From positions 144,038 through 208,037 of the forward strand of contig CACMEY010000002.1 in assembly GCA_902612805.1 (NCBI GenBank): 64,000 nt of DNA, read 5' to 3'. The DNA is from an uncultured Alphaproteobacteria bacterium (lineage in GTDB: Bacteria > Pseudomonadota > Alphaproteobacteria > HIMB59 > GCA-002718135). This document shows positions 40,001 to 43,000 of this stretch, one piece after another. Numbering within the stretch: position 1 is the first letter of the stretch; each line of letters opens with the position of its first letter. Made by a program: the position numbers.

Positions 40001-43000
40001 GTAAATATTCAATTACCGACAATTTTAGTCTTTTTTTAGATAATTTTATTAGATTAGTATTTTCATCAAATATTTTTTTATTTATCAAATCAATATTATC
40101 AAATGAAAATGGAATTGACGATATTAACTTAATATTGTTTAATTTGAACCATTCAGTAATTTCACTCAAAGTATGAGAACTTTCTTTTGGATTCTGATAC
40201 TGGTCTTTAATCCAAGCATAATTTTTTTTTGAAATCTTTTTTAATATATTGTTCAATTTATTTCCTACAATTAAATGAAAAATTTTAAATACAAATTGTT
40301 TAAAATAAGTTATTAATCTTCCATATTTGTGATATAAACCTATTATAATTATTCCATCTTTTTTTAACAATTTAGTTAATTCACAAAATGATTTATATGG
40401 CACTGCTGTATGATGTAATACCCCATTAGAAATAATTACATCAAAATATTCTTTTTTAAAAAAATTTTCCAAGATATTCATTTTAAGAAAGTAGACATTT
40501 TGTATTTTGTTATCAAAAGCAAATTTGTTTGCTAATTGAAGAGAATTTTCTGATAAATCTATTCCTACTATTTCTCTATTGTTGTTAGCTAAATAATTGC
40601 ATAACTGTCCTGTTCCACAACCAGCCTCCAAGATTTTAGAATTGTAAGGAATTTCTTTATCAAGTTTATCAATAAAAATTGATTTCTTTGCCTTATTTCT
40701 TAATTCAAAGATATCATCAAATTCATCATAGTTTGGAAATTTTATATCATTATAAAAAATAGATTGTTTTTTTGTGACATTATCTGAATTATCATTAAAA
40801 GATAAATTTAAGATACCTTTTTTTGAAATGAAAGTGTATTTATTATCTTTCAATATACCTTTTTGTAAATCTAATAATTTAAGTTTGTTGCCAGTTTTAG
40901 GATTTATTAAGTTATTTAAAATTCCATTACTATTAATTTCCATCAAAAATTTAAAAAAGTGTGTAAACAAAAGGAGCAACTGCAGAGCCTTGAGTTAAAA
41001 CTATTAAAACTCCAAATATAAATAAAACAATTATTATTGGCATTAACCAGTATTTTTTTCTATTCAAAAGAAATTTAACAAATTCTTTAACAAAACTCAT
41101 TAAAATTGATCCTTCATATCATTCATTTGAATTTTTCTTTTTGTCCAATAACTTTTAATTTTTTTACTTGTTTTTTCATTAAGCAAATCTTTCCCGATTA
41201 ATCTCATAAATAAACCAATTGGCGTAACAAGAAAAATAAAAATAATAAATAGAACAATAGGTGATACAATTATACCAAGTAAAATACCTAATTTTGACCA
41301 AAGAAGATTAGGTATTTTAAATACCGATGGTTTTACAAAAGAAAATATAAAAAAGAATATTGATAAAATTAAAAAAAAAAATGAAAAAGTTAATTGTGTT
41401 TTTGTGTAAAAATATAAACCTAACAAAATGAAAAAAATTGAAAATACTAAGCCAAAACTTTTTTCAGATCCAATACTAACAGTGGAGTAACTTTTTATTT
41501 CCATTTAAATATCCAATTATATTATTTTATAAACTTTTAAAATAAATTATTTAAAAATTAAATTTAATTAATTTCATGTCATTTATTGATAAGTTACATA
41601 TTAATATTAAATTAATTATTTGTGTATTTAAATATAATTTCAGCTACTATTTTATAGCCTTCAACAGTTAAATGACCATAATGTCCCGAATTCTTATTAT
41701 AAGGATATATTAAAACTGGATCATCCACATTTTTGTTAATTTCCTTATAAAGATCAATAAATGGAATATCTAAGTCTTCAATAATTCTTTTAATTTGAAG
41801 GTATTTTGATTTATCATGATCTTTAAGAAAATGCTCTACCGAAGGGAAGAAAACAAAATATAAATCAGCATCATTATTTTGTGAAATATTTTTAGCGTTA
41901 ATTAATATTTTTTTAAATTCTTCTTTTTTAAAATCTAAGTCATTTAATTTATTATTTTTAGTTGACTGTTTATCTTTTATAAATTTTGAGATGATTAGAG
42001 TTCTTGTATTAGTCAATTTGATAAAAGAAGAAATATTTTTAAAATTTTTGACGAGATTAAACTCATTTTTCTTAATATCAAAAGCCTCTTTTTTAATTCT
42101 TGCCTCTGTTATTTGAAAACTTGCTAATTTATCAATTTCTTTTTGTTTATTTATGAGATTTTGTGAAAATGTAGTATCATTTAAATATTTATTTAATATT
42201 TTATCTTGTAGTTCAAAATTTAAATCATAAATGTCAGTAGCTTCTGTATGTATCCATACAATTTTATTGACCTTTACTTTTAAATATTCTCTTAAACTTG
42301 CAAGTTTTAGCAATGGACCGTTGCCTCCATAACCTAAATTTAAAACAGCTTTATTAGATAAAATTCTTAAAATAGATGAAATTTCATCAGGTCGATTGAC
42401 GCAGGCACCCTGTGTCAGGGAATCTCCTATTAGAAAATATTCTATATTTTTTTTGTCCCACTCATAATCAGGATTATTAAAACCATATCTATCACTATCA
42501 TAAATAGAATAATAACCATTTTCTTTGCAATATAATGTTTCAGCTTTTGATACTCCCGATAATGGTATTAGAACATTATTTTTATTTAAATAACCAGTTG
42601 GCGCCACTACCACTTTTGCATCTTTATTTTTAAGTAATAAATCACTATGAACTTCAAAAGTTGATCGTGTATCTTCATTTTCTGCATTATCTAAAATTTC
42701 AGATTTAAAAAAATTATTATTTTTTAAAATTAGATATGTCTCTGCAAAATAAAATGAGAAAATAAAACTTATAAATATTAATATAAGGTTATCTTTTGCA
42801 TCATTTTTTATATAGTGTGCAAGAATAGATAATATTATAAATATTAGTGGAAAAATAAAATATATATAATTATAATTTATTTCTTCATTACCTTGATTAA
42901 AAATTTTAAAAAAAATATATGAAAAATAATGATAAATATTTTCTTAAAAACTTCATATTAGTATTTTAATTTTGTATTTATAATATAATTTTGATTTTAA

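What the first reader, a model, noticed from the sequence alone, without database searches (positions are those of the whole stretch)
41612..42956. SGNH-like glycan-modification gene split from its start codon by a T8 homopolymer (+1 nt)
The catalytic body (41612-42613) only has a GTG start. Its frame stays open for 110 more codons upstream (to 42943). That extension is homologous to the TM/linker region of the paralog 43805-45157: ISFIFSFYFAETYLIL matches LSILFSLYSFELYLQF, and LIPLSGVSKAETLYCKENGYYSI matches IYPISGISNVTVVNCNESGFWSI. The extension contains no ATG, GTG or TTG. An ATG at 42954-42956 opens a TM-like leader (MKFLRKYLSLFFIYFF) in the neighbouring frame, which stops exactly at the end of an 8-nt T run (42908-42915, coding strand). 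Removing one T fuses leader and body into a full-length membrane-anchored protein. Possible explanations are a pseudogene, a homopolymer sequencing error, slipped-strand phase variation of a surface-glycan modifier, or rescue by transcriptional slippage. Transcriptional slippage of this kind has been described for poly(A/T) tracts in other AT-rich reduced genomes.
Basis: seen in the sequence. Interest (0 to 1): 0.55.

Follow-up and report, generated by a model that had tools for sequence, protein, structure and literature searches.

The report
SGNH gene broken by 26-nt deletion
A membrane-anchored SGNH-type enzyme gene in a SAR11 (Pelagibacter-like) surface-sugar island has lost its start codon through a 26-base deletion, not through a slip in the T8 run, so this is an ordinary young dead gene or an assembly or amplification artefact.

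Summary
There is an ATG at 42956 and a 16-codon leader that ends in a TAA at the end of a T8 run (42908-42915). The body frame is open from 42943 to 41612, and its first canonical start is the GTG at 42613. Deleting one T gives a 447-aa protein that aligns end to end with the paralog at 43805-45157.

The T8 run is not the lesion. Six independent metagenome contigs carry orthologs that are 94-98% identical. All six have the same T8, in frame (Y-I-F-F-K), plus 26 nt (TTTTTTATTATCATTTCTATTTTTTC) that the window lacks between 42927 and 42921. The missing stretch is flanked by a 5-nt TTTTT microhomology. The deletion removes the core of the first of three transmembrane helices and shifts the frame.

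Even a frame-restoring slip at T8 would give a protein without a usable TM1. No T-run length variation was seen (7 of 7 sequences are T8), and T8 runs are common in intact genes here (73 of 80 A/T runs of 8 or more lie in long ORFs).

I could not decide whether the deletion is real in the cell or an amplification or assembly artefact. A near-identical NCBI assembly has contig ends on both sides of this exact spot, which is the most AT-rich, lowest-complexity stretch in the window. Either way the finding is ordinary, and interest is low.

The parts
42954..42956 (-). Ancestral ATG start codon of the gene, retained
   Evidence: Identical position and upstream region in six orthologous contigs
42906..42956 (-). 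Remnant leader ORF: 16 codons (MKFLRKYLSLFFIYFF) plus TAA. Codons 1-10 are the true N-terminus; the rest is read out of frame after the deletion.
   Evidence: alignment with the orthologs
42921..42927 (-). Deletion junction. 26 nt (TTTTTTATTATCATTTCTATTTTTTC on the coding strand) present in all orthologs are missing here. The exact break is ambiguous within the 5-nt TTTTT microhomology (42922-42926).
   Evidence: DNA alignments; repeat census of the intact sequence
42908..42915 (-). T8 run (A8 on the + strand). This is the native length. It is in frame in the intact orthologs (codes part of Y-I-F-F-K), so it is a bystander and not the lesion.
   Evidence: T8 in 7 of 7 sequences
41612..42943 (-). 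Body of the gene in the shifted frame: end of TM1, TM2, TM3, linker, SGNH-like catalytic domain with a helical insertion, and the stop codon. No further stop or frameshift.
   Evidence: It differs by 20-23 nt from intact orthologs, with a syn:nonsyn ratio like intact-versus-intact pairs. Fold evidence.
41612..42613 (-). 333-aa ORF from the GTG, as annotated in the NCBI source record (P0121). This is a gene-caller fallback. It lacks all three TM helices and the family-invariant residues Y22, Y78, E81, D104 and R106.
43805..45157 (+). Intact paralog (450 aa, 34% identity) of the same 3-TM + SGNH family
43028..43732 (+). Divergently transcribed methyltransferase-like gene. It shares a 71-nt promoter region with the broken gene, and that region is conserved in the orthologous contigs.
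40951..41504 (-). Downstream same-strand genes SxtJ-like (41100-41504) and DUF5989 (40951-41100). They are syntenic with the gene in all orthologous contigs.

Best explanation
The gene belongs to a large, uncharacterised, mostly marine family: at least 1658 homologs of about 440 aa, and the two homologs found in genome assemblies here are Pelagibacteraceae single-cell genomes. Family members have three N-terminal transmembrane helices followed by an SGNH/DltD-like domain. By the positive-inside rule and two invariant cysteines, that domain probably faces the periplasm and acylates or de-acylates a surface glycan (inferred).

In this genome the gene is disrupted by a 26-nt deletion inside the TM1-coding segment (junction 42921-42927), flanked by a 5-nt TTTTT microhomology in a T-rich stretch full of short direct repeats. 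The deletion removes 26 nt and shifts the frame, so the ATG-initiated reading frame ends after 16 codons at a TAA that happens to follow the native T8 run. The body is left with no start before a GTG at codon 124 of the intact protein.

As the sequence stands this is a null allele. I read it as a very recent deletion private to this strain, caused by replication slippage between short repeats, that is, a young pseudogene in a flexible glycan island that still holds an intact paralog.

Shown: the identity of the lesion, the innocence of T8, and the loss of TM1 (about 0.95 confidence for these). Inferred: that the deletion exists in the cell rather than only in the assembly; the topology; and the biochemical role. 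The stated confidence of 0.5 is for the whole statement, including 'real in the cell'.
For: - Orthologs: a 96%-identical, intact 456-aa ortholog (P0001) and three more 456-aa members (P0123-P0125), plus two N-terminal fragments with an intact N-terminus (P0127, P0128).
- DNA alignment: in six contigs from different samples (Logan ERR14837238; ENA ERZ28548084, ERZ2779800/TARA, ERZ908896, ERZ840860, ERZ28653913/TARA) T8 is invariant and the 26 nt are present. Only the window lacks them.
- Ancestral state: 23 distant homologs and the paralog all have a full TM1 with invariant Y22.
- TM1: the hydrophobic stretch is 19 residues in the intact form and 10 in the '-1 T' form.
- Age: 20-23 nt differences from L001 and L008, with syn:nonsyn codons 12:8 and 15:7 against 12:9 between intact orthologs, and no second lesion. 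The event is therefore recent.
- Assembly quality: this is the only obviously broken gene in a densely coded 64-kb window, with 92.6% covered by open frames of 150 codons or more.
- Rarity: only one truncated (333-aa) call sits in its 90%-identity cluster of a 15-billion-protein collection, so the allele is rare or private.
- Fold: pLDDT 83; helices 2-30, 32-57 and 60-88, then an SGNH core. Foldseek hits are CgnD, DltD, TesA, acetyl-xylan esterase and PatB.
Against: - No reads were available, so the deletion has not been verified in the cell.
- A near-identical NCBI assembly (GCA_902518945.1) is 100% identical over 4730 nt and differs at 2 of 5225 nt. Its contigs end at 42829 and 42933, either side of the junction, so the locus is technically difficult.
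- The stretch has 9.5% GC, among the lowest 0.15% of 104-nt windows.
- Under the read filter of a common single-cell pipeline, the intact allele could not be assembled across this site, while the 26-nt-deleted allele just could. This is a route to an artefact or an ascertainment bias.
- Pseudogenes are rare in streamlined SAR11 genomes (own knowledge).
- 8-nt direct repeats that would give 15- or 19-nt deletions lie nearby, yet the observed event used only 5 nt of homology.
Confidence: 0.5

Rival explanations
1. The 26-nt deletion is not in the organism. It arose during whole-genome amplification or library PCR (polymerase template switching at TTTTT microhomology in 9.5% GC DNA), or during assembly, and was carried into the consensus. 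The gene would then be intact in the cell.
For: - The deletion is unique to one assembly among seven sequences that cover the site, and the gene is otherwise pristine.
- The sister assembly GCA_902518945.1, probably a single-cell genome judging by its accession series (inference), breaks into two contigs exactly here.
- The site is the longest run in the whole window of 150-nt read starts that a '<5% of any nucleotide' filter would discard: 93 starts in the deleted allele and 146 in the intact allele.
- The predicted overlap of the surviving flanking reads is 3 nt for the intact allele, 45 and 49 nt for the 15- and 19-nt repeat-mediated deletions, and 56 nt for the observed deletion. Only the last exceeds k=55, which I recall as the largest SPAdes single-cell k.
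- That filter, the 100-bp end trimming and a slightly raised deletion frequency in WGA-X reads are described in PMC5519541.
Against: - The sequencing and assembly pipeline of the window's source genome is unknown. The model assumes untrimmed 150-nt reads.
- The predicted contig ends after 100-bp trimming (about 42842-42848 and about 43014) match the sister's observed ends (42829 and 42933) only roughly.
- 26-nt deletions are not a typical Illumina or SPAdes error.
- The rest of the window shows no other broken gene.
Confidence: 0.41
2. The T8 run carries one T too many, through a sequencing error or slipped-strand mispairing, and acts as a phase-variable on/off switch for a surface-glycan modifier.
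For: Removing one T does join the leader and the body. Homopolymer switches in glycan-modifying genes are well known in other bacteria (own knowledge).
Against: - T8 is the in-frame, native length in all six orthologous contigs, and no length variant was seen.
- The frame problem is fully accounted for by the 26-nt deletion: the ATG-to-stop span is 1371 nt in the orthologs and 1345 nt in the window.
- T8 or A8 runs are ubiquitous in intact genes here.
- A T7 allele would still lack 9 residues of TM1.
Confidence: 0.02
3. The deletion is real, but expression is partly rescued by recoding. The route would be a +1 ribosomal frameshift at the fortuitous UUU-UAA 'shifty stop', or loss of one U by transcriptional slippage in U8. 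Either would give a low level of a 447-aa protein.
For: - The sequence UUU UUU UAA A lets P-site tRNA-Phe re-pair in the +1 frame with a stop codon in the A site. This formally resembles release factor 2 (prfB)-type frameshift sites (own knowledge; review PMC5009743).
- A/T runs are slippage-prone in AT-rich genomes (PMC5574713).
Against: - The arrangement is a by-product of a private deletion and is not conserved in any relative.
- The rescued product lacks a functional TM1, so the topology of the three-helix anchor would probably be wrong (inference).
- In transcriptome-wide data, slippage in A/T runs gives mostly insertions, rises steeply with run length up to 9-11 nt, and no case of frame restoration was seen (PMC5574713).
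- No stimulatory Shine-Dalgarno-like element is evident upstream.
Confidence: 0.03
4. The 333-aa ORF starting at GTG 42613 is a functional, soluble, neo-truncated enzyme.
For: The catalytic domain, including the GDS-Ser and the conserved His, is intact. An annotation pipeline called this ORF.
Against: - It would lack all three TM helices and any export signal.
- It would lack five family-invariant residues in the membrane and linker part (Y22, Y78, E81, D104, R106).
- There is no ribosome-binding motif before the GTG.
- No relative starts there. All homologs of about 430-460 aa carry the N-terminal region.
Confidence: 0.03

Closest known systems
Frameshifted pseudogene formed by microhomology-mediated (slipped-strand) deletion between short direct repeats
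   Same: An out-of-frame deletion flanked by a short repeat (TTTTT) in repeat-rich, AT-rich DNA. Intact orthologs exist and the rest of the gene is undamaged.
   Different: Nothing unusual. The only caveat is that the event is unverified by reads and lies in a spot that is hard to sequence and assemble.
Homopolymer-tract contingency (phase-variable) genes for surface-glycan modification, e.g. in Campylobacter, Haemophilus, Neisseria
   Same: A homopolymer sits near the 5' end of a putative surface-glycan-modifying gene, and the reading frame is broken next to it.
   Different: The tract length is invariant (T8 in 7 of 7) and in frame in the intact alleles. The frame is broken by a 26-nt deletion that cannot revert by slippage.
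Poly(A/T) transcriptional-slippage rescue of frameshifted genes in Buchnera/Blochmannia
   Same: An AT-rich small genome with an A/T run adjacent to a frameshift.
   Different: The run is only 8 nt, is native, and is not the site of the lesion. Rescue would need a deletion in the transcript rather than the prevalent insertion (PMC5574713), and would give a protein without TM1.
DltD (D-alanyl transferase of lipoteichoic acid; PDB 6pfx, 3bma, 6o93, 7dxm) and periplasmic SGNH glycan O-acyl enzymes (PatB 7tlv, sialate O-acetylesterases, acetyl-xylan esterases)
   Same: An N-terminal membrane anchor followed by an SGNH-type domain with a helical insertion. Foldseek E-values run from 6e-6 to 3e-3 at probability 1.0. 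The GDS-Ser and C-terminal His motifs are conserved.
   Different: - Sequence identity is 12-15%.
- There are three TM helices rather than one.
- There are no dltABC, MBOAT or AT3 partner genes next to it.
- The Asp of the D-x-x-H block is not conserved.
- In this ortholog group the block III Asn is Thr (EATD rather than EGND).
- Pfam GDSL scores are below the gathering cut-off.

Membership tests
SGNH/GDSL hydrolase superfamily | Block I GDS(L/F) motif with the nucleophilic Ser | tested here: met
   GDSL at residues 186-189 of P0001. G186 and D187 are invariant and S188 is at least 90% conserved across 27 family members. The motif is present in the window's body frame (FLIGDSLTQG).
SGNH/GDSL hydrolase superfamily | Block III G-x-N-D and block V D-x-x-H | tested here: inconclusive
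   D250 and H437 are invariant. The family consensus is EGND, but this ortholog group has EATD (Asn replaced by Thr). No conserved Asp lies three residues before the His.
SGNH/GDSL hydrolase superfamily | Flavodoxin-like alpha/beta/alpha SGNH fold | tested here: met
   AlphaFold2 model with pLDDT 83.3 and pTM 0.72. There are 28 PDB matches at E <= 1e-3. The enzymes among them are SGNH or DltD-type (TesA TM-score by target 0.65-0.72); the list also includes a few designed scaffolds (9hi4, 9hi5).
SGNH/GDSL hydrolase superfamily | Score above the curated Pfam or NCBIfam cut-off | tested here: not met
   PF13472 scores 20.8 bits against a cut-off of 32.9, and PF14606 scores 18.6 against 27. There is no NCBIfam hit for P0001. 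The PDB profile search gave only E=0.81. This is a divergent member recognised by motif and fold.
Phase-variable (contingency) locus | Repeat-tract length differs among closely related strains or reads | tested here: not met
   T8 in the window and in all six orthologous contigs. Reads were not available.
Phase-variable (contingency) locus | A change of one repeat unit toggles between a full-length functional ORF and a truncated ORF | tested here: not met
   In the intact alleles T8 is the ON state. In the window, T7 would join the frames but leave a 10-residue remnant of TM1.
Programmed or rescuing transcriptional slippage / ribosomal frameshift | The frameshifted arrangement is conserved among relatives | tested here: not met
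   All relatives encode a single continuous ORF.
Programmed or rescuing transcriptional slippage / ribosomal frameshift | Trans-frame transcript or protein detected | not testable with these tools
   No RNA-seq or proteome data for this organism were available.
Pseudogene (recent loss-of-function allele) | Intact orthologs exist, and the local copy has a frame-disrupting lesion that removes the start and an essential segment | tested here: met
Pseudogene (recent loss-of-function allele) | The lesion is present in the organism's DNA (supported by reads or an independent genome) | not testable with these tools
   The only near-identical genome has contig ends at 42829 and 42933, so the site is not covered. 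The metagenome scans found no close relative.

The most novel reading that the evidence does not exclude
The deletion is real, and the fortuitous UUU-UUU-UAA context created beside the native T8 run supports low-level +1 ribosomal frameshifting, or loss of one U in the transcript. This SAR11 cell would then make a trickle of a TM1-truncated SGNH enzyme, a 'leaky null' of a surface-glycan modifier.
Probability: 0.03. Interest if true: 0.4.

Novelty: already known. Interest (0 to 1): 0.08.

Why it matters
It matters little biologically. At most it is one more strain-private loss-of-function allele in the flexible surface-glycan island of a SAR11 cell, which fits the known high turnover of such islands.

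The value is practical.

1. It removes a false lead: no phase variation or slippage rescue at the T8 run.
2. It shows that a frameshift next to a homopolymer in AT-rich DNA should be checked against orthologs before the homopolymer is blamed.
3. It flags a stretch of 9.5% GC that two near-identical assemblies handle differently. This is a reminder that low-complexity read filters can create breaks, or select for deleted molecules, in single-cell genomes.

Tried and rejected
- Exact 30-mer of the gene's 5' end in JGI metagenome contigs: no hit.
- Protein-guided scans of metagenome contigs and genome contigs: only distant relatives at 42% and 35% identity (L003, L002). The source genome was not found.
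- Exact look-ups of the 333-aa product to retrieve the source contig: not on record, although the cluster table lists it as NCBI with a 218,409-bp contig.
- Sequence-profile search of the PDB: nothing significant (E=0.81). NCBIfam: no family for the ortholog.
- L004, a 20-kb orthologous contig with the gene split into 285 + 134 aa, was considered as a second independent inactivation. I rejected this: the contig has 1.36x coverage, many of its genes are split, and the lesion is a -1 in an A5 run.
- I tried to use the sister assembly to decide between a real deletion and an artefact. Its contigs stop on either side of the site.
- The read-filter model explains why a break is expected there but cannot tell which allele that cell has.
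- Conserved linkage of the SGNH gene with SxtJ/DUF5989 in distant homologs: not obvious in L002 or L003, so I make no functional claim from synteny.
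Full report
**1. The observation**

On the - strand an ATG at 42956-42954 opens MKFLRKYLSLFFIYFF. It ends at a TAA (42908-42906) whose first T is the last base of a T8 run (42915-42908). 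The adjacent frame is open for 443 codons from 42943 to the stop at 41612. The first ATG/GTG/TTG in that frame is the GTG at 42613, which gives the 333-aa ORF listed mechanically and also present as an NCBI-sourced protein, P0121. Deleting one T yields a 447-aa protein that aligns from residue 8 to 446 with the neighbouring paralog 43805-45157 (34% identity, E 1e-49). The description is accurate.

A T8 run is not special here. The window has 80 A/T runs of 8 nt or more, 73 of them inside long open frames. This gene has another T8 run and two 7-nt A/T runs that are read through in frame.

**2. What the lesion really is**

One of them, P0001, is 96% identical and 456 aa long. Its 90%-identity cluster holds three further 456-aa proteins. 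A second cluster holds N-terminal fragments with the same N-terminus, MKFLRKYLSLFF(I/F)IISIFSFSYIFFKIFNQG.

I retrieved the DNA of six contigs from different samples: L001 (Logan ERR14837238), L004 (ENA ERZ28548084), L005 (TARA SAMEA2621839), L006 (ERR599050), L007 (ERZ840860) and L008 (TARA SAMEA6009172). In the alignment the 60 nt of upstream region compared differ at only two positions among the seven sequences (L005-L007), and the first 30 nt of the CDS are identical in all seven. All seven have the same T8 run.

The six environmental sequences then carry 26 nt that the window lacks: TTTTTTATTATCATTTCTATTTTTTC, with SNPs in L005-L007. In the orthologs the T8 run is in frame and encodes part of Y-I-F-F-K. 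The length arithmetic agrees. The ATG-to-stop span is 1371 nt in the orthologs and 1345 nt in the window, a difference of 26 nt, which is not a multiple of three.

In window coordinates the junction lies between 42927 and 42921. It is ambiguous within a 5-nt TTTTT microhomology. The intact sequence is crowded with short direct repeats: TTATCATT twice, TATTTTTT three times, TTTTTC twice.

The long form is ancestral. All 23 distant homologs (41-47% identity) and the paralog have a full-length first hydrophobic segment with an invariant Tyr (Y22) and a near-invariant Ser (S16). The window's leader frame and body frame each hold one end of that segment.

**3. Consequences**

The AlphaFold2 model of the intact ortholog (pLDDT 83.3, pTM 0.72) has three long N-terminal helices (2-30, 32-57, 60-88) and a linker. 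These are followed by an alpha/beta domain with a large helical insertion at 280-369.

Foldseek against the PDB gives CgnD, DltD, E. coli TesA, acetyl-xylan and sialate esterases and PatB. E-values run from 2.6e-6 to about 3e-3 at probability 1.0. This supports 'SGNH-like'. Sequence methods are weak: the Pfam GDSL hits fall below the cut-off, the PDB profile search gave E=0.81 and there is no NCBIfam hit.

The alignment shows an invariant G-D of the GDS motif with a near-invariant Ser, plus D250 and H437. It also shows two invariant cysteines, and five invariant residues in the membrane and linker part: Y22, Y78, E81, D104 and R106. The N-terminal part is therefore more than an anchor.

With a basic N-terminus (MKFLRK) and three helices, the catalytic domain should be periplasmic. 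This is an inference from the positive-inside rule and the conserved Cys pair.

The deletion cuts the 19-residue uncharged core of TM1 to 10 residues. The Kyte-Doolittle 19-residue window maximum falls from 2.25 to 1.03, which is below the usual 1.6 threshold. Even if one T or U were lost at the run, the product would lack a membrane-spanning TM1. A product started at the GTG would lack all three helices and all five invariant N-terminal residues. As written, the sequence is a null allele.

**4. Age and frequency**

Apart from the deletion, the window's gene differs from L001 and L008 at 20 and 23 nt. Synonymous:nonsynonymous codon differences are 12:8 and 15:7, much like the 12:9 between the two intact orthologs. 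There is no second stop or frameshift. The event is therefore recent.

The truncated 333-aa call is the only one of its kind in its cluster. JGI metagenomes and the GTDB representative genomes contain no close relative at all.

**5. Real deletion or artefact?**

I could not settle this. Two contigs of another NCBI assembly, GCA_902518945.1, match the window almost perfectly. CABYIE010000030.1 equals window 42829 to 38100 at 100% identity. CABYIE010000014.1 equals window 42933 to 48157 with two substitutions, at 45242 and 46481. Their ends bracket the lesion, and the 103 nt between them (42830-42932) are unassembled, so this sister genome says nothing about the allele.

The stretch from 42829 to 42933 has 9.5% GC, among the lowest 0.15% of all 104-nt windows in the 64 kb.

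The Bigelow single-cell workflow discards reads with less than 5% of any nucleotide. It also trims 100 bp from every contig end and drops contigs under 2 kb (PMC5519541). Modelling that filter with 150-nt reads gives these results:
- This site is the longest run of discarded read starts in the window.
- With the intact allele, the surviving left and right reads overlap by only 3 nt, so a break is inevitable.
- With the observed 26-nt deletion they overlap by 56 nt.
- With the 15- or 19-nt deletions that the longer 8-nt repeats would favour, they overlap by 45 and 49 nt.

If the source genome came from such a pipeline, a contiguous assembly across this site is only possible from deleted molecules. 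Those molecules could represent the cell's true allele, or a minority of amplification products. I do not know the pipeline of the source genome. The sister's observed contig ends also match the model only roughly.

I therefore give about 0.5 to a real, very young deletion and about 0.4 to an artefact. The remaining possibilities (T-run indel, recoding rescue, a functional GTG product) get a few percent together.

**6.

Phase variation and homopolymer error at T8 are refuted as the cause, because T8 is the native in-frame length in 7 of 7 sequences.

Transcriptional-slippage rescue is unlikely for three reasons:
- The arrangement is not conserved in any relative.
- The run is short, and rescue needs a one-base deletion in the transcript. 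Slippage in A/T runs gives predominantly insertions, and that study saw no frame restoration in Buchnera (PMC5574713).
- The rescued protein would still lack TM1.

A +1 ribosomal shift at UUU-UAA is mechanistically conceivable (review PMC5009743) but has the same problems.

**7. Context**

The gene lies in a 21-24% GC island, about 36-60 kb of the window, within roughly 30% GC flanks. The island encodes two carbamoyltransferases, an SxtJ-like protein, two DUF5989 proteins, several methyltransferases, a GT2 glycosyltransferase and an ABC exporter. This is the kind of flexible surface-glycan region described for SAR11.

The two genome-assembly hits were a Pelagibacteraceae single-cell genome and the sister assembly. 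An alphaproteobacterial two-piece tmRNA lies at 34346-34632.

**8. Verdict**

What is there is a 26-nt deletion in the TM1-coding segment of a divergent SGNH/DltD-like family gene, in the hardest-to-sequence 100 nt of the window. This is an ordinary finding, so interest is low (0.08).

Noticed in passing
window 42829-42933: A near-identical NCBI assembly (GCA_902518945.1) has two contigs whose ends bracket exactly this stretch. At 9.5% GC it is the most AT-rich 105 nt of the window. It is also the longest run of 150-nt read positions that a '<5% of any nucleotide' filter would discard.
   Followed up: partly
window 36000-60000: A low-GC island (21-24% against about 30% in the flanks). It holds two carbamoyltransferases (36213-38045, 45210-46895), an SxtJ-like gene (41100-41504), two DUF5989 genes (40951-41100, 39730-39879), several methyltransferases, a GT2 (46888-47775) and an ABC exporter (47839-49566). 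The carbamoyltransferase, SxtJ and DUF5989 trio resembles sxtI/J/K of saxitoxin clusters (own knowledge), which suggests carbamoylation of a surface glycan.
   Followed up: partly
window 38790-39782 (- strand): A 330-aa polytopic membrane protein directly downstream of the second DUF5989 copy. It matches no Pfam or NCBIfam family.
   Followed up: no
A2 alignment; P0001 residues 22, 78, 81, 104, 106, 152, 194: The 3-TM + SGNH family has invariant residues inside the membrane and linker part (Y22, Y78, E81, D104, R106) and two invariant cysteines. The N-terminal domain probably does more than anchor the enzyme.
   Followed up: no
window 42230-42245 (- strand; WIHTEATD): In this ortholog group the block III motif is EATD instead of the family consensus EGND, so the oxyanion-hole Asn is replaced by Thr. 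The Asp of the D-x-x-H block is absent family-wide.
   Followed up: no
L004 9036-10405 (ENA ERZ28548084, coverage 1.36): The ortholog is split into 285 + 134 aa by a -1 in an A5 run. Many neighbouring genes on this contig are also fragmented. This is most likely low-coverage error rather than independent inactivation.
   Followed up: partly
protein P0128 (278 aa, ENA): An ortholog fragment whose last roughly 40 residues (NGNSGAAVEEAVDRW...) are unrelated and not AT-rich in style. This is probably a chimeric contig.
   Followed up: no
window 34346-34632 (+ strand): A two-piece (permuted) alphaproteobacterial tmRNA with tag peptide ANDNRLALAA. It fits a SAR11/alphaproteobacterial origin.
   Followed up: yes
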